Below the pieces are notes generated by a model. The model searched no databases and was not told the DNA's origin. It worked only from the letters and a program-made list of their open reading frames with translations. DNA of 64,000 nucleotides from NCBI RefSeq assembly GCF_048403405.1, contig NZ_CP183129.1; one strand, given 5' to 3'. Below, in pieces: positions 31,392 through 36,050 of this stretch (positions are counted from its first letter, which is position 1; each line of letters opens with the position of its first letter). The position numbers were made by a program, and so were the translations under genes. The stretch is from Escherichia coli (lineage in GTDB: Bacteria > Pseudomonadota > Gammaproteobacteria > Enterobacterales > Enterobacteriaceae).

Positions 31392-33497
31392 TTATTGAGC
31401 TTCTTTTTGTGATGCCTGTGCGACTCTGGTGAGCGATTGTGTGACCGTACTGATCGCTCTGTCATATGCTGTGCTACCTTTTGGCGTATTTGCCAGACGT
31501 AACAAGGCATTTCGTATAACAGGGGTTTCGTATGCCTTCGCTGCTCCGCCTACGGCACCAGCAGCAGGAACAACAAACGCAGCCGTTTTTAGCATCCCCG
31601 CTAATACTGCTGCGTTTATGATGCCACCACCAACTAACAATCCATAAAGCTGCTGACCATTTAAGTTTTGAACGTTCGCTTTTGCCGCGTGTCTTGTATC
31701 GTTGAGGTATTTAATAACGCCGTCCAGTTCCTTCCCATGTACGCCTTTAAAGAAAGTTGCTGATTGCTTCCTGTTCCGGTGTAACGCATTAATAAACTTC
31801 TCAACACTGATATTTCCAGACGGATCAGTCGCCTTATCTACAGCATTCTGAACTATGGCTGCTCGTGCGTTTTGCCTACCATTGTCATCCAGAAGCCTGT
31901 AAAGCTGAGAACGTTCTGATGGGCTTTGGCTAAAAACGAGTTTTGTTACATCCTCAGGCGTGGCCTTGCCGCTGGCTATTGCCTTTTGAACGCGCGTTCT
32001 TCCCATCATGTCATTGAATTTAGACCATGAGCGATCAACCCTTGCCATATTAATGGCTTCGTCTGCTCCAAGATTTTTGGCTACGGCTTTTTTCATATCC
32101 GCCGTATATGCCTTGTAGATAATATCGCTGGCTTTCTGGAGCGTATCTTTATCAACAGTGTCAGATGACGCAATAAATCGCTTTCGAAGATCGGTTCTGT
32201 TTTCCCTCGCCAGGCGCAGGTCATTTGGTCCGCTGGTGATATCGTCTTTAAATTGCTGCAAGACTTTTACCGCGGCTCTATCCTGAGATTTGCCCGGGCG
32301 GCTTAACACGGCAATCTGATTGTCGATAGCTTTTACCGTGTTTGAGAGATCGACAGGGGTATCCCCCATAGCGTCAATTATGCGGTTATATCGCTTTCCT
32401 GCTGCCTCAATGAATTTTTGTTGCCCTTTAGTCGCAGATTCATAAAGCTGTTTATCAGAAATGCCACCCAGACCATCGCTAAATGTTCTGACTAAATTTT
32501 CTCGTGCTTGTTGTTGATTCAGCCGATTCTTACCGGTTCCAAAAAAAGGAACTCTTTCGCCTAATGTCTGAGCCTGACTCTGCATAAAGGTTTTATCTTT
32601 CAGCATGTCACTGGTCATTAACGGCAGATTTCTTTCCGATGCAAAGTCGACAGCAGCCTTTGCTTCAGGCGACATATCACCACGAACAGCCCTCGAAACC
32701 GCACTCGCTGTATTTTCCAGCCCCTTACCAATACCACCAATGCCAGCAGAAATTACCGTTTGTAACGGATCAATATCTTCTCCACCAGCAAGGCTGGTGG
32801 CTCCCTGTAGTGCTAAATCTGTAGCTGCTGATTTTCCTATGGCACCAAGCACCGTTCCAGCCCTGCCCGCTGGTGTAAACGCCAACGCATTAGCAAGAAA
32901 CGAAGTCAGGTCTTGCGGTGATAAACCCGGCTTGTTCAGGGCATAATCACCTGATGGCAGAGAAACGATAGTATTCCCCTTCTCATCCTGCCTTAATGTC
33001 GCCCCCATTCCCTGAAGAATCTTTTCCTGAGACGCGTCAGAGCCGAAAAGTTGGGACCATCCAGCCTTTAGGGCATCCATGCTTAGTGAGTTCAATTCTG
33101 GGGCAGAGGCGACATTTTGCAGTCTCTCCATCTCTGAAGTCATTCGGCTTTCGCCTGTTATAGCATCGCGCATCGCAGCCCCAAGACTGGCTCCCTGTTC
33201 TGCTGAACGCTCAAGCCCCTCTCTTTGCTGAGTAGCTAACTTTGCATACCCTGACGCAAGAGAATTATCAGATGATGTATGTTGAATATTTTGAGTTGCT
33301 GATTGGGATCGGTCTATTTCATTCGTTGATGGTAGTGGATAGGCAGCATAAAAAGCCTGCTTAGCCTGCTCTACACTTTCTCCGGCTTGCGGGGCAACGA
33401 CTTCATTGAAGTATTGCTCCTGAGCCTGCGCTTTTTGTTCTGGTGCTAACGCCTGATACTGTGGAGAGGCGATAACATCTTTCCATGCTTTAGCCAT
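31392..33497 (-). CDS. Cargo operon gene 4: hypothetical 701-aa Ala/Gln-rich protein with C-terminal Gly/Ala-rich hydrophobic segment; candidate ejection-protein (P22 gp16-like) homolog
   Basis: Start codon overlaps the upstream gene stop (33497); low-complexity composition, no P-loop or nuclease motifs seen; C-terminal LYGLLVGGGIINAAVLAGMLKTAAFVVPAAGAVGGAAKAY. Family assignment inferred only from size, order and composition. Confidence 0.6.
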   Translation of the reverse strand: MAKAWKDVIASPQYQALAPEQKAQAQEQYFNEVVAPQAGESVEQAKQAFYAAYPLPSTNEIDRSQSATQNIQHTSSDNSLASGYAKLATQQREGLERSAEQGASLGAAMRDAITGESRMTSEMERLQNVASAPELNSLSMDALKAGWSQLFGSDASQEKILQGMGATLRQDEKGNTIVSLPSGDYALNKPGLSPQDLTSFLANALAFTPAGRAGTVLGAIGKSAATDLALQGATSLAGGEDIDPLQTVISAGIGGIGKGLENTASAVSRAVRGDMSPEAKAAVDFASERNLPLMTSDMLKDKTFMQSQAQTLGERVPFFGTGKNRLNQQQARENLVRTFSDGLGGISDKQLYESATKGQQKFIEAAGKRYNRIIDAMGDTPVDLSNTVKAIDNQIAVLSRPGKSQDRAAVKVLQQFKDDITSGPNDLRLARENRTDLRKRFIASSDTVDKDTLQKASDIIYKAYTADMKKAVAKNLGADEAINMARVDRSWSKFNDMMGRTRVQKAIASGKATPEDVTKLVFSQSPSERSQLYRLLDDNGRQNARAAIVQNAVDKATDPSGNISVEKFINALHRNRKQSATFFKGVHGKELDGVIKYLNDTRHAAKANVQNLNGQQLYGLLVGGGIINAAVLAGMLKTAAFVVPAAGAVGGAAKAYETPVIRNALLRLANTPKGSTAYDRAISTVTQSLTRVAQASQKEAQ

Positions 33498-34918
33498 TAA
33501 TCACCCCATAGTGAAGAAAAGTTACTGCTGGCTGCTGGCTGTGATACCTGCTCAGATTGCGGCAATGTCTGCGACGAAGAAGACGTTCCTCTGTCAACTG
33601 CTGAAATAACCCGCAAAGCATCATAAGCTCGACCAGAAGCAGCTTTCAGCGAATTGAACTGGTTTTCCATCTTCCGGCGCTTGGTATCAATGGTTTTTGT
33701 GGAGTCGCCAGGCTGAGGGAAATACATTTGATAATATTTTGACATTTCAGCAGGTACGATAGCTGCCCCTGTTTCCTGACGGAGTATTGCCATTATTGCG
33801 TCATTAGCATTAACAACGTATTGCTGCTCTGTTGGGCTGAGCGTTAAGTTAGCCAGCGTCCCATTACCCAAAGCATTATTAATGATCGCCACTCGCTGTG
33901 GGCTAAGCTGGTCTTTCAGTGTATCTATTGAATCAAGAGCATCCCTAACCCTGTATGCAAATCCAGCAGCTTTTTTAGCCCCTTCTGGCGACTTTTCCAT
34001 GATCTTTTGGGCTGTTGGCAAAGCTATTGGACGAAACCCATCTCCAGATATTGGCTGGTTTAGTTTTCCCTGCTCTTCACTTCCGTCTGTGTAGTATTTT
34101 GTGACAGTGCCATCATCGTTTTCTCTAACACTCATTAATTTTTTGGCGTTTGTATTAATTCCAGCCGCTGCCGCAAATGCCGCCGCCCCCTCTGGATCCG
34201 CCTTTAACATTTGAGCGTACTGATTGTAATTCTGCATTGCTGCTGTTGGTGCATATGCTGACGTTAACGCATTTGCTCGGCTAATATCCTGCCCTCTCGC
34301 CTGAAGTGCTTCGCCAGCCTGATTGCTGCGGATTGTCTCTGCCAGCCTGCCTCGCTCAATATCCCGACCTTCCATTTGATCTTTGATATTGAAATACTTC
34401 TCATGACCGAGAGAAAACAGTGCCATACTACCAGCAAGCCGCTGGAATCCCTGTGGATCATTAACATGCATTTCGGCAACAGACTCAGGAGAAATTCCCA
34501 AGCGACGCATTTCATCTTCGTTATCTGCTATGAATTTTCCAAATGCCCCAGTTCCGAGCGAAGATGCGATTTGAGCACTAGTCGCAAGATGACCAATAGA
34601 ATTTCTCTGGTCGTCATCAATAAAGCCCATCCCTTTCTGAACGCTTTCAAATTCTTCTGGATACTCAGAAATAAGACTGCGCATTTTGTTTCTGTCTCCA
34701 GACTCAAAAGCCCCGGCATATGCTTTCTGAAACTCTGATTTACGCTGTTGTTGACGTGCCTGCTGATTAATCTCAGCAACGCCTCTTAGCCCCTGTAGCG
34801 CCATTAAACCTACGTTTGGCTGCTGCTGATACTGCACAGGCTGAGGAACGGAAGAACGAGGAGCATTATCATTTTGCGGTGCCATGCTAGGCAGCCCGCC
34901 AAGTTGCCATGTCGTCAT
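33497..34918 (-). CDS. Cargo operon gene 3: hypothetical 473-aa Gln/Ala-rich protein; candidate ejection-protein (P22 gp20-like) homolog
   Basis: Translationally coupled to flanking genes (shared boundary positions 34918 and 33497); no TM segments or catalytic motifs recognised. Confidence 0.6.
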   Translation of the reverse strand: MTTWQLGGLPSMAPQNDNAPRSSVPQPVQYQQQPNVGLMALQGLRGVAEINQQARQQQRKSEFQKAYAGAFESGDRNKMRSLISEYPEEFESVQKGMGFIDDDQRNSIGHLATSAQIASSLGTGAFGKFIADNEDEMRRLGISPESVAEMHVNDPQGFQRLAGSMALFSLGHEKYFNIKDQMEGRDIERGRLAETIRSNQAGEALQARGQDISRANALTSAYAPTAAMQNYNQYAQMLKADPEGAAAFAAAAGINTNAKKLMSVRENDDGTVTKYYTDGSEEQGKLNQPISGDGFRPIALPTAQKIMEKSPEGAKKAAGFAYRVRDALDSIDTLKDQLSPQRVAIINNALGNGTLANLTLSPTEQQYVVNANDAIMAILRQETGAAIVPAEMSKYYQMYFPQPGDSTKTIDTKRRKMENQFNSLKAASGRAYDALRVISAVDRGTSSSSQTLPQSEQVSQPAASSNFSSLWGD

Positions 34919-35595: not shown

Positions 35596-36050
35596 TCGCT
35601 GAGTTCCTTATATTGTTGCCGTGTTAACTGATAAAGCGTTACGCCGACGGGTTTACCACATCTGATATATGCATCGGCCAGGTGACCAACACGGGTAGCG
35701 CCAAGCAAACGGATAATTGCCCGTCCGTATTTCGTGGTGTCAGGAACCATGGTGATGCTGTTAAGGAATGGTGAGTTTTCGAGAAGCCATTTGCAGAACA
35801 ATCGATGCCCTTGCAGTGCATATTCACCACGGAATCCGGGGTCGTACACCGCATGGCATTCAACAATGCTATGCCAGAAGTTACGCACTTCATGAACGCC
35901 TGTCAGCACTAATCCTTCGTAGATGCCGAGATATACCGCATCAGGCTTGATGTAGTACGTGTGCCCCGGCTCAACAATATTTTCGGTATTGCCAGGCTCG
36001 TTAAGAAAGGCCTGTAATCGCACCGGGTTATCAATAAATTTTAGTTCCAT
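35589..36050 (-). CDS. Cargo operon gene 1: hypothetical 153-aa soluble protein
   Basis: First gene of the coupled four-gene operon; several conserved-looking His/Cys (HEVRNFWH, ECHAVYDPGF); no family recognised from memory. Confidence 0.55.
   Translation of the reverse strand: MELKFIDNPVRLQAFLNEPGNTENIVEPGHTYYIKPDAVYLGIYEGLVLTGVHEVRNFWHSIVECHAVYDPGFRGEYALQGHRLFCKWLLENSPFLNSITMVPDTTKYGRAIIRLLGATRVGHLADAYIRCGKPVGVTLYQLTRQQYKELSEC

What the first reader, a model, noticed from the sequence alone, without database searches (positions are those of the whole stretch)
31392..36050. Four-gene, translationally coupled cargo operon of low-complexity proteins inside the integrative element: unassigned system, possibly phage ejection-protein-like
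Four consecutive minus-strand genes (153, 225, 473, 701 aa) have overlapping stop/start codons, so they are expressed as a unit. None shows a P-loop, nuclease, methylase or other enzymatic motif. Three are Gln/Ala/Gly-rich, and two end in glycine-zipper or Gly/Ala-rich hydrophobic segments typical of membrane-inserting proteins. The sizes and order 225-473-701 are close to the P22-type ejection proteins gp7 (~229), gp20 (~471), gp16 (~609), which are also low-complexity; this is my recollection and I cannot confirm it by alignment here. Ejection proteins are not expected in a P4-like or PICI-like satellite, so either the element supplies injection proteins for a podovirus-type helper, or this is a membrane-acting superinfection-exclusion or defence module of a type I do not recognise. 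The operon sits exactly between the two inverted iteron arrays.
Basis: partly seen in the sequence, partly recalled or inferred. Interest (0 to 1): 0.85.

Follow-up and report, generated by a model that had tools for sequence, protein, structure and literature searches.

The report
Phage satellite carrying P22-type ejection genes
The four genes are a complete, intact set of the proteins that P22-like phages shoot into a cell to build the channel for their DNA; here they sit in an 18-kb phage satellite of a recently published family (EcCIMP1-like), where their role has never been tested.

Summary
The four coupled minus-strand genes are homologues of P22 gp14, gp7, gp20 and gp16 (PHROG E 1e-65 to 1e-161; Pfam DUF2824 and Inj_translocase; BLASTP to P22).

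They lie in an 18,129-bp island (window 28743-46871) between dinD and yicC. The island has an integrase, an AlpA-like gene, a P4-type C4 RNA, a primase and iterons, but no capsid, portal, terminase or tail genes. Its backbone is 97% identical to EcCIMP1, a published island mobilised by the P22-like phage Kapi1. That paper called these genes possible packaging factors.

New here:
- Family members keep gp14 and gp7 but swap gp20 plus gp16 as a pair.
- Some members carry only that pair.
- Sister satellites in other genera hold tape measure or lytic tail proteins in the same slot.
- The element carries a 107-bp copy of the P22-type pac region.
- One sister satellite has a SieA homologue after gp16.

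Best reading (inferred): the satellite loads its own DNA-conduit proteins into helper-made particles and so sets DNA-entry specificity.

Verdict: a new member of a known kind. The function is untested and now directly testable.

The parts
28743..46871 (.). Whole integrated satellite (18,129 bp) between dinD and the yicC stop codon
   Evidence: Empty-site comparison with K-12: homology ends at 28742 and resumes at 46872. TATGTACAC arm-type repeats lie at 28810-28833 and 46741-46764.
35589..36050 (-). gp14-like protein (DUF2824), 153 aa
   Evidence: phrog_651 at 2e-65. Pfam DUF2824 at 1.9e-60. 24% identity to P22 gp14, E 1e-8. 83% to Kapi1 and 97% to EcCIMP1.
34918..35595 (-). gp7-like ejection protein, 225 aa, Gly-zipper-like C-terminus
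   Evidence: phrog_598 'DNA ejection' at 1e-69. 56% identity to P22 gp7, E 5e-54. 99.6% to EcCIMP1 and 57% to Kapi1. Composition and C-terminus.
33497..34918 (-). gp20-like ejection protein, 473 aa
   Evidence: phrog_917 at 2e-111. Pfam Inj_translocase (P22 injectosome) at 1e-57, residues 34-213. 38% identity to P22 gp20 over the N-terminal 239 aa. Only the N-terminal 187 aa align to EcCIMP1's copy, at 48%.
31392..33497 (-). gp16-like ejection protein, 701 aa, hydrophobic Gly/Ala segment at residues 617-649
   Evidence: phrog_770 'DNA transfer protein' at 2e-161. 30% identity to P22 gp16, E 1e-52. 33% to Sf6 over the full length and 67-68% to phage N7. No BLASTP similarity to EcCIMP1's or Kapi1's gp16. 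No Pfam domain.
36067..36228 (-). 53-aa leader ORF that heads the cargo slot; possible ribbon-helix-helix regulator
   Evidence: Conserved at 43-79% identity downstream of the primase in about 25 related satellites of other genera. AF2 model at pLDDT 86 with an extended N-terminus and two helices. The fold search is not significant; the best TM-score is to the RHH protein FitA. No Pfam or PHROG hit.
36244..36267 (-). Slot promoter core: conserved TATAAT (36262-36267) followed by a CTGT-N8-ACAG LexA-type box (36244-36259)
   Evidence: Alignment A1 shows a nearly invariant -10 element across genera. The box pattern occurs 3 times in the window against 0.61 expected, and one copy is at the dinD promoter. 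The strict box is in 7/7 Escherichia satellites and 5/24 others. Function is inferred.
36332..36347 (-). Terminator-like hairpin separating the primase operon from the slot promoter
   Evidence: A hairpin plus T-run is seen at the equivalent place in most aligned loci.
31368..31389 (-). Terminator-like hairpin immediately after the gp16 stop codon
30954..31373 (+). 4-TM membrane protein (139 aa; annotated 129 aa from 30984) convergent with gp16, in the position of sieA in P22
   Evidence: Hydropathy. No similarity to P22 SieA, to any phage record, to PHROGs or to PADLOC. The equivalent gene in sister satellite L007 is a SieA homologue.
36674..36794 (.). Iteron array next to the primase stop codon (probable ori)
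29534..29666 (.). Inverted second iteron array (analogous to P4 crr)
36813..39572 (-). TOPRIM/DUF927 primase-helicase (P4 alpha-like)
   Evidence: phrog_1139 at 5e-178. Annotated as TOPRIM and DUF927 in matching genomes.
42345..42451 (+). 107-bp copy of the pac-bearing interior of a P22-type small-terminase gene (candidate pac site)
   Evidence: 87% identity to P22 positions 4-110 (annotated pac site at 4-25). 91-92% to the terS genes of E. coli phages Louie, IME10 and HZ41. The block starts at the first pac base and both flanks are unrelated. It is present in EcCIMP1, L007 and L073.
41991..42218 (-). P4-type immunity RNAs: C4 antisense RNA (41991-42078) and isrK (42141-42218)
   Evidence: Rfam, above gathering score.
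45424..46767 (-). Tyrosine integrase (annotated start 46683); int-alpA RNA at 45349-45415
   Evidence: phrog_1 at 6e-64. Rfam RF02996.
29217..29504 (-). PerC-family regulator at the far end of the element
   Evidence: phrog_994 at 3e-37. Annotation.

Best explanation
WHAT IT IS (shown). The four genes are a complete, intact P22-type ejection-protein module: gp14 assembly factor, gp7, gp20 and gp16. It sits in the cargo slot of an EcCIMP1-like satellite with P4-type regulation and replication, integrated between dinD and yicC.

HOW IT WORKS (inferred).
1. When a resident P22-like helper is induced, the slot's own promoter fires. That promoter is preceded by a terminator, followed by a LexA-type box, and headed by a small RHH-like protein gene.
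2. The satellite's E-proteins enter helper procapsids by the scaffold-dependent route through their N-terminal parts. Leavitt 2024 showed that very divergent foreign E-proteins do this in P22.
3. The helper terminase packages satellite concatemers from the captured P22-type pac site.
4. At the next cell, the satellite's gp7, gp20 and gp16 form the trans-envelope DNA conduit.

The satellite, rather than the helper, would then set the DNA-entry specificity of the particles that carry it. The most likely pay-off is entry into cells whose resident P22-like prophages block the helper's own gp16/gp20 type through SieA-like exclusion. Those cells are the ones that contain a future helper.

The same slot holds tape measure or lytic tail/internal proteins in sister satellites. 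The general rule would be that the satellite brings its own ejected conduit protein, matched to its helper's tail type.
For: IDENTITY.

SATELLITE CONTEXT: there are no other virion genes. The element has P4-type RNAs and iterons. It is 97.4% identical to EcCIMP1 over 9.3 kb. EcCIMP1 excises and transduces only with the P22-like phage Kapi1 (PMC11773190).

SELECTION AND SPREAD:
- dN/dS is 0.07-0.33, similar to the primase at 0.12-0.17.
- The slot leader is in 454 of 5426 complete E. coli genomes.
- 9 of 9 inspected satellites carry gp20 plus gp16, and 7 of 9 are intact.
- A deeply divergent but syntenic four-gene cassette exists in Lelliottia.

SWAP PATTERN:
- gp14 and gp7 are 97% and 99.6% conserved between the window and EcCIMP1.
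- gp20 (after about 53 aa) plus gp16 are exchanged together, and there are at least 3 unrelated gp16 types.
- Some members carry only the pair.
- This matches published biology. gp16 and gp20 must be cognate while gp7 is interchangeable. Foreign E-proteins assemble and function. SieA escape maps to gp16 plus gp20 (PMC10883804). gp20 binds procapsids through its N-terminal part (PMC8402733).
- EcCIMP1's pair is only 26% and 24% identical to its helper's.

SISTER SLOTS: tape measure proteins (phrog_1107, E = 0, near full length) or lytic tail/internal virion proteins follow the same leader ORF in 17 of 24 loci from other genera. Tape measure proteins are also documented targets of exclusion proteins.

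PAC COPY.

SOS-TYPE BOX.

NO HELPER INTERFERENCE: EcCIMP1 does not lower Kapi1 titres.
Against: - No experiment shows these proteins in particles or shows any effect on transduction.
- EcCIMP1 transduction by Kapi1 is very low.
- EcCIMP1 increases superinfection immunity rather than visibly evading it.
- P22 SieA excludes P22 itself, so a sieA gene next to gene 16 does not imply a resistant pair.
- The strict LexA-type box is absent from most non-Escherichia relatives.
- The RHH assignment is not statistically supported.
- Procapsids are loaded before DNA is packaged, so satellite and helper particles would carry the same protein mixture and the benefit is not private to the satellite.
- Two of nine inspected copies are disrupted.
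Confidence: 0.5

Rival explanations
1. Interference or defence module. The satellite's non-cognate gp20/gp16 (and the tape measure proteins in sister elements) act as poison subunits. They are built into the virions of an infecting or induced P22-like phage and make them non-infectious. Alternatively, the module together with the convergent membrane gene acts as a superinfection-exclusion block.
For: The slot downstream of pri is a known accessory and immunity hotspot in PICIs, and it hosts assembly-interfering Tai systems (PMC11364771). P22 virions carrying a mismatched gp16 or gp20 are non-functional. EcCIMP1 adds to superinfection immunity against Kapi1, and no known defence system was found in it. 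L007 carries a SieA homologue next to gp16. Neighbouring cargo in sister elements includes Abi, Doc and ImmA genes.
Against: EcCIMP1 does not reduce Kapi1 titres after induction and does not protect non-lysogens. The proteins are full-length and phage-grade, keep the conserved gp20-C/gp16-N junction, and show no truncation typical of a decoy. There are no PADLOC hits. An SOS-type promoter would respond poorly to infection by an outside phage (inferred).
Confidence: 0.2
2. Insurance or complementation. The satellite carries spare conduit proteins so that it can use defective or divergent helper prophages that have lost, or poorly supply, their own ejection genes. This would widen its helper range.
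For: Pick et al. showed that EcCIMP1's second AlpA-like gene can stand in for the Kapi1 excisionase, and they proposed an 'insurance policy' logic. Only 2 of 21 EcCIMP1-bearing strains have a Kapi1-like prophage. gp14 and gp7 are optional while the essential cognate pair is always kept.
Against: It does not explain why the pair is so often swapped among near-identical backbones. It also does not explain why only conduit proteins are spared rather than other commonly lost late genes.
Confidence: 0.1
3. Post-entry role. The satellite's gp16/gp20 travel with the DNA and protect or circularise the incoming linear satellite concatemer rather than changing entry specificity.
For: P22 gp16 has been linked to abortive transduction and handling of the entering DNA (tdx-1, cited in PMC10883804). 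The satellite enters as a headful fragment and must recircularise (inference from element size).
Against: No direct evidence exists. The helper's own gp16 would do the same job. This reading does not account for the tape measure proteins in sister slots.
Confidence: 0.07
4. Non-functional leftover of recombination between a satellite and a P22-like prophage.
For: Patchy 86-96% nucleotide matches to phages show recent exchange. Two of nine copies are disrupted.
Against: The genes are under purifying selection. The slot leader is in 8.4% of complete E. coli genomes. The cassette persists across swaps of integrase, replicon and allele. It always sits behind the same leader ORF, and a deeply diverged syntenic copy exists in Lelliottia.
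Confidence: 0.04

Closest known systems
EcCIMP1, phage-inducible chromosomal island of E. coli MP1 (Pick, Stadel & Raivio, ISME J 2025; PMC11773190)
   Same: Same backbone: 97.4% nucleotide identity from the start of gp20 through gp7, gp14, the leader ORF, the primase, Ash, Ant and the AlpA-like gene. It has the same slot with a gp14-gp7-gp20-gp16 series and the same pac-like block. Neither has capsid or terminase genes. EcCIMP1 is shown experimentally to depend on a P22-like podovirus.
   Different: The integrase and site differ: dinD/yicC here, tRNA-Thr with att TCCTATTATC there. gp20 is unrelated beyond its N-terminal 187 aa. gp16 is an unrelated type: 701 aa Sf6/N7-like here, 906 aa with a transglycosylase annotation there. 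The convergent downstream gene also differs: a 4-TM protein here, a lipoprotein there. The paper treated the genes as possible packaging factors and never uses the words ejection or injection.
Ejection-protein operon of P22-like phages (P22 14-7-20-16-sieA; Sf6 gp10-13)
   Same: All four proteins are homologous. The order is the same, as is the one-base stop/start overlap between genes 20 and 16. A convergent membrane gene follows gene 16. gp20 and gp16 show the same mosaic diversity (PMC10883804).
   Different: It is not part of a late operon behind the needle gene 26. It stands alone behind a small leader ORF and its own promoter, in an element with no other virion genes.
Satellite phage P4 and P4-like elements
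   Same: Integrase, AlpA/Vis-like gene, C4 (CI-type) antisense RNA plus isrK, alpha-like primase, and two iteron arrays like ori and crr.
   Different: No sid, psu or delta capsid-size genes were detected, and the helper signal is a P22-type pac copy rather than a P2 cos site.
Capsid-forming PICIs (cf-PICIs) and mycobacterial EPIP satellites with a tape measure gene
   Same: These satellites also make some virion parts themselves and take the rest from a helper. The EPIP preprint reports a satellite-encoded tape measure protein (10.64898/2025.12.02.691453).
   Different: Those elements encode capsids and connectors. This family encodes only the ejected conduit proteins. The preprint states that tape measure proteins are otherwise not known in satellites.
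Tai tail-assembly-inhibition systems in the PICI hotspot downstream of pri (PMC11364771)
   Same: Same genomic position, an accessory region after the primase gene. They also act on phage virion assembly.
   Different: Tai proteins are not homologues of virion proteins. No Tai or other known defence model matches here.

Membership tests
P22-type ejection-protein cassette (gp14, gp7, gp20, gp16) | Each protein is a sequence homologue of its P22 counterpart | tested here: met
   PHROG E-values of 2e-65, 1e-69, 2e-111 and 2e-161. BLASTP to P22 of 1e-8, 5e-54, 4e-45 and 1e-52. Pfam DUF2824 and Inj_translocase.
P22-type ejection-protein cassette (gp14, gp7, gp20, gp16) | Gene order 14-7-20-16 with tightly coupled reading frames | tested here: met
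P22-type ejection-protein cassette (gp14, gp7, gp20, gp16) | Part of a phage late operon, directly after the tail needle gene | tested here: not met
   Upstream lie a 53-aa leader ORF, an own promoter and a primase gene. There is no needle, portal, coat or terminase gene in the element.
P22-type ejection-protein cassette (gp14, gp7, gp20, gp16) | Proteins are present in virions and released on infection | not testable with these tools
   Needs particle proteomics.
EcCIMP1-like PICI | Shared backbone: integrase, AlpA-like gene, Ant, Ash, primase and PerC; size about 18-20 kb; no structural or lysis genes | tested here: met
   97.4% identity over 9316 bp. Gene content. Size 18,129 bp.
EcCIMP1-like PICI | Integration at tRNA-Thr (proA/yagU) with core att TCCTATTATC | tested here: not met
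   This element is inserted between dinD and yicC with a different integrase module. Sister elements use either site.
EcCIMP1-like PICI | Excision, circularisation and transfer only when a helper phage is induced | not testable with these tools
   Shown for EcCIMP1 with Kapi1 (PMC11773190), not for this element.
P4-like satellite | Alpha-type primase, integrase, AlpA-like gene and CI/C4 immunity RNA | tested here: met
P4-like satellite | sid, psu and delta (capsid-size redirection and late control) | tested here: not met
   No matching PHROG families among the element's proteins. This was not searched with dedicated profiles.
Known anti-phage defence systems (PADLOC models) | A match of any cassette or neighbouring protein to a defence-system model | tested here: not met
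   Zero hits for the four proteins. Among ten other element proteins there was only one weak hit (E 0.002).
SieA superinfection-exclusion protein (for the convergent 139-aa ORF) | Sequence homology to P22 SieA, an inner-membrane protein encoded after gene 16 | tested here: inconclusive
   Position and membrane topology match. There is no sequence similarity. The gene in the same position in L007 is a SieA homologue (E 8e-8).

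The most novel reading that the evidence does not exclude
A widespread family of P4-type satellites in Enterobacterales has a dedicated slot, behind a conserved small regulator gene and promoter, for the helper's ejected DNA-conduit protein. 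The slot holds gp(14/7)/20/16 for P22-like podoviruses, a tape measure protein (with a small partner) for siphoviruses, and lytic tail/internal proteins for other helpers. By loading its own conduit proteins into helper-built particles, the satellite controls how its DNA crosses the envelope. This would include escape from the entry-blocking exclusion proteins of resident helper prophages. It would be a hijacking strategy distinct from capsid-size redirection, terminase redirection and capsid formation.
Probability: 0.35. Interest if true: 0.85.

Novelty: new member of a known kind. Interest (0 to 1): 0.62.

Why it matters
All satellite strategies described so far act on capsid size, packaging specificity, capsid formation or late gene control. 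A satellite that supplies the proteins forming the DNA-entry channel would add a new point of control: entry into the next cell.

This would explain how satellites reach lysogens that exclude their own helper type. It would also turn the long-noted hypervariability of gp16, gp20 and tape measure proteins into a three-way arms race between phage, exclusion protein and satellite.

On the practical side, the slot leader is present in 8.4% of complete E. coli genomes. The captured P22-type pac block also predicts better helpers than Kapi1 (phages with a P22-type TerS, such as Louie, IME10 and HZ41). That could remove the low-transduction obstacle that stopped the EcCIMP1 authors from studying packaging.

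Tried and rejected
- NCBIfam gave no family for the four proteins, and PADLOC gave none.
- Sequence searches of the PDB gave nothing for gp7, gp20 or gp16.
- The 139-aa membrane ORF has no similarity to P22 SieA or to any phage record. Only its position supports an exclusion role.
- The 53-aa leader ORF has no Pfam, PHROG or PDB-profile match. Its RHH-like model gave only non-significant Foldseek hits.
- The 108-aa partner of the tape measure genes has no informative Pfam hit.
- The simple sigma-70 scan did not list the slot promoter because its -35 element is weak.
- I considered and rejected a decaying P22-like prophage, because of the empty-site boundaries, the absence of other virion genes, purifying selection and recurrence.
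- I considered and rejected membership of classical P4 (no sid, psu or delta detected).
- A 12-bp direct repeat first taken for att turned out to be an arm-type repeat, not the junction.
- Literature searches for satellites with ejection proteins or tape measure proteins found only EcCIMP1, the EPIP preprint and unrelated work.
- I did not test co-occurrence with resident P22-like prophages, because the tools list only the best place per genome.

Full report
OBSERVATION. The four minus-strand ORFs exist exactly as described: 35589-36050 (153 aa), 34918-35595 (225 aa), 33497-34918 (473 aa) and 31392-33497 (701 aa). Their stop and start codons overlap (ATGTTAA, TAATG, TAATG). Three of them are 29-42% Gln+Ala+Gly. 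The 225-aa protein ends in a Gly-zipper-like tail, and the 701-aa protein has a hydrophobic Gly/Ala segment at residues 617-649. The two inverted iteron arrays are real: GTTGGTTCA units at 29534-29666 and 36674-36794, with 55-nt arms that are 96% complementary. The operon lies between them, together with a leader ORF and three plus-strand genes.

IDENTITY.
- The proteins hit the PHROG families of P22 gp14 (phrog_651, 2e-65), gp7 (phrog_598 'DNA ejection', 1e-69), gp20 (phrog_917 'released from the phage upon host infection', 2e-111) and gp16 (phrog_770 'DNA transfer protein', 2e-161).
- Pfam gives DUF2824 (2e-60) for the first protein and 'Inj_translocase, P22 injectosome' (1e-57) for the third. 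It gives nothing for the fourth.
- Direct BLASTP to P22 gives 24% (1e-8), 56% (5e-54), 38% over the N-terminal half (4e-45) and 30% (1e-52).
- Order and coupling are those of P22 14-7-20-16.
- The closest phage versions are in E. coli Lederbergviruses. gp14 is 82-84% identical to 720R6, Kapi1 and Louie, and gp16 is 67% identical to N7 and HZ41.
- No defence model matches.

CONTEXT. Comparison with the empty K-12 site puts the insertion at 28743-46871 (18,129 bp), between dinD and the yicC stop codon. The element encodes:
- an integrase, an AlpA-like HTH protein, an AntA/B antirepressor and an Ash-family ORF;
- several small proteins, a TOPRIM/DUF927 primase and PerC;
- no capsid, portal, terminase, tail or lysis gene.
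Rfam finds a P4-type immunity region (C4 antisense RNA and isrK) and the int-alpA RNA. The backbone is 97.4% identical over 9.3 kb to EcCIMP1 of E. coli MP1. Pick, Stadel and Raivio (PMC11773190) showed that EcCIMP1 excises, circularises and is transduced only when the P22-like podovirus Kapi1 is induced. They noted the homologous genes as 'DNA transfer' and DUF2824 proteins and proposed them as candidates for packaging. The words ejection and injection do not occur in the paper. So the family is known, while the nature and role of the cassette are not worked out.

PATTERN OF VARIATION. Between the window and EcCIMP1:
- gp14 is 97% and gp7 is 99.6% identical;
- gp20 aligns only over its N-terminal 187 residues (48%);
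- the two gp16 proteins show no BLASTP similarity;
- the nucleotide identity breaks about 160 nt into gene 20.
Other E. coli members carry only a gp20-like and a gp16-like gene behind the same leader ORF (L007, L008, L073, L078-L080). The pair persists across different integrases, integration sites and even a different replication module. At least three mutually unrelated gp16 types occur in these satellites. EcCIMP1's pair is only 26% and 24% identical to that of its helper Kapi1.

SELECTION AND PREVALENCE.
- The genes are under purifying selection: dN/dS is 0.07-0.21 for gp14, about 0.1 for gp7 and 0.29-0.33 for gp20, against 0.12-0.17 for the primase.
- The primase-gp14-gp7 junction is in 236 complete E. 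coli genomes, and the slot leader is in 454 of 5426.
- Two of nine inspected copies are disrupted.

FIT WITH PUBLISHED P22 BIOLOGY. The swap pattern maps onto published results.
- gp16 and gp20 must be a cognate pair, whereas gp7 can be exchanged.
- Highly divergent foreign E-proteins are incorporated into P22 virions and function.
- Escape from the inner-membrane exclusion protein SieA maps to gp16 plus gp20 (PMC10883804).
- gp20 and gp7 bind procapsids through their N-terminal parts, in a scaffold-dependent way (PMC8402733).

THE SLOT IN OTHER GENERA. A scan of species-representative genomes with the primase found about 55 related elements in Enterobacterales. The 53-aa leader ORF recurs in 24 non-Escherichia loci. 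What follows it:
- In 10 loci it is a siphovirus tape measure protein, usually preceded by a 108-aa partner. Five of these were verified against PHROGs, for example phrog_1107 with E = 0 over nearly the full length.
- In 7 loci it is a 'lytic tail protein' or internal virion protein with a transglycosylase domain.
- In Lelliottia it is a deeply divergent four-gene E-protein cassette of 155, 226, 494 and 786 aa.
- Six loci are unclassified.
The tape measure locus checked in detail (L027) has no other tail genes. All these proteins are ejected parts of the DNA conduit. Tape measure proteins are, like gp16 and gp20, documented targets of exclusion proteins. A December 2025 preprint states that tape measure proteins are otherwise not known in satellites.

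SIGNALS AROUND THE CASSETTE.
(a) Window 42345-42451 is a 107-bp block. It is 87% identical to P22 positions 4-110 and 91-92% identical to the small-terminase genes of E. coli phages Louie, IME10 and HZ41.
- It begins exactly at the first base of P22's annotated 22-bp pac site, and both flanks are unrelated.
- It is also present in EcCIMP1, L007 and L073.
- The core matches at 16-17 of 22 positions, and the next 85 bp match at 80 of 85.
- Kapi1's TerS is unrelated to P22's, whereas Louie's is 82% identical.
- I infer a captured pac site. I further infer that the natural helpers have a P22-type TerS, which could explain the very low transduction by Kapi1.
(b) The slot has its own promoter. It has a terminator-like hairpin, operator-like repeats, a nearly invariant TATAAT, and in all seven Escherichia copies a CTGT-N8-ACAG box directly after it. 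That pattern occurs 3 times in the window against 0.61 expected, and one copy is at the SOS gene dinD. SOS control is a lead, not a result.
(c) The leader protein models as an extended N-terminus plus two helices (pLDDT 86). This is compatible with a ribbon-helix-helix regulator, but the fold search is not significant.
(d) The gene convergent with gp16 sits where P22 has sieA. It is a 4-TM protein of unknown family here, a lipoprotein in EcCIMP1, and a true SieA homologue in L007 (29% over 108 aa, E 8e-8, shared RYPGEA motif).

MECHANISM. Shown: this is a complete P22-type ejection-protein module in a helper-dependent satellite family. It is conserved, and its gp20-gp16 pair is swapped as a unit.

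Inferred: the satellite expresses these proteins when a helper is induced. They load into helper procapsids, the satellite DNA is packaged from the captured pac site, and at the next cell the satellite's conduit proteins set entry specificity. The most plausible benefit is entry into cells whose resident prophages exclude the helper's own type.

I put this at about 0.5. The main rival (0.2) is an interference or exclusion module. In its favour are the hotspot position, the non-function of mismatched pairs and EcCIMP1's contribution to superinfection immunity. Against it are the unchanged Kapi1 titres and the lack of protection of non-lysogens. Complementation of defective helpers (0.1), a post-entry role (0.07) and a dead remnant (0.04) follow.

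NOVELTY. The element is a new member of the published EcCIMP1-like family, at a different site and with different gp20/gp16 alleles. As far as the searchable literature shows, the following have not been described:
- recognition of the genes as a full ejection set;
- the pair-wise swapping and the pair-only variants;
- the tape measure and lytic-protein sisters in the same slot;
- the pac copy;
- the SieA homologue.

LIMITS. All functional statements are inference. Papers in subscription journals were not searchable. Co-occurrence with resident prophages was not tested.

Noticed in passing
window 42345-42451 (+); also L004 26954-27060: A 107-bp copy of the pac-bearing interior of a P22-type small-terminase gene. 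It starts exactly at the first base of P22's annotated pac site, has unrelated flanks, and is conserved in four satellites. Kapi1's TerS is unrelated to this type, so better natural helpers are predicted (Louie, IME10, HZ41).
   Followed up: yes
L018 14293-18042; L027 14147-17641; L026 16882-20786; L011 17233-20557; L017 15133-17724: Sister satellites in Chimaeribacter, Erwinia, Pantoea, Klebsiella and Pluralibacter carry a near-full-length siphovirus tape measure protein in the slot behind the same 53-aa leader ORF. Most also have a 108-aa partner. No other tail genes accompany it in L027, the locus checked in detail.
   Followed up: partly
L007 4766-5380 (+): The gene convergent with the satellite's gp16 is a homologue of P22 SieA (29% over 108 aa, E 8e-8, shared RYPGEA motif). 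EcCIMP1 has a lipoprotein at this position (L004 14632-15330), and the window has a 4-TM protein (30954-31373).
   Followed up: partly
window 36244-36259 and 28565-28580: Two CTGT-N8-ACAG LexA-type boxes. One is at the dinD promoter, a known SOS gene. The other lies directly after the TATAAT of the cargo-slot promoter and is conserved in all seven Escherichia satellites examined.
   Followed up: partly
window 41532-42599 (-): The annotated 355-aa 'Ash family' ORF overlaps the C4 antisense RNA (41991-42078), isrK (42141-42218) and the pac-like block. Part of this ORF may therefore be non-coding regulatory DNA. In EcCIMP1 it is annotated as a pseudogene.
   Followed up: no
L073 10887-13238: An otherwise syntenic E. 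coli satellite at the same dinD/yicC site has a DUF5906 replication protein instead of the TOPRIM/DUF927 primase. It keeps the leader ORF and a Kapi1-type gp20/gp16 pair (75% and 41% identical to Kapi1).
   Followed up: partly
L080 801-1778; L073 3336-4199; L008 1309-2792: The region between PerC and the cassette holds variable defence-like cargo in sister elements: an Abi-family protein, an ImmA/IrrE peptidase pair, and a death-on-curing toxin pair.
   Followed up: no
window 553-4870 (-), GC 35-40%, left of tRNA-Sec at 10098-10192: A low-GC block encodes three proteins of 593, 376 and 449 aa. Two have weak, below-cutoff matches to type III secretion tip/translocator proteins (SipD/IpaD-like, PRK15374). 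From my own knowledge this resembles the selC-associated eip locus of strains such as E. coli 042.
   Followed up: partly
window 56197-56235 (+): A JUMPstart RNA element lies ahead of a low-GC gene cluster at the right end of the window. It is probably the LPS core (waa) operon leader.
   Followed up: no
window 33329-34378: The gene 20 3' end and gene 16 5' end are 92-96% identical at nucleotide level to Sf6, HF4s, Gally and other phages, although the surrounding genes are far more diverged. This is a conserved junction that probably serves as a recombination linker for swapping ejection-gene alleles.
   Followed up: partly
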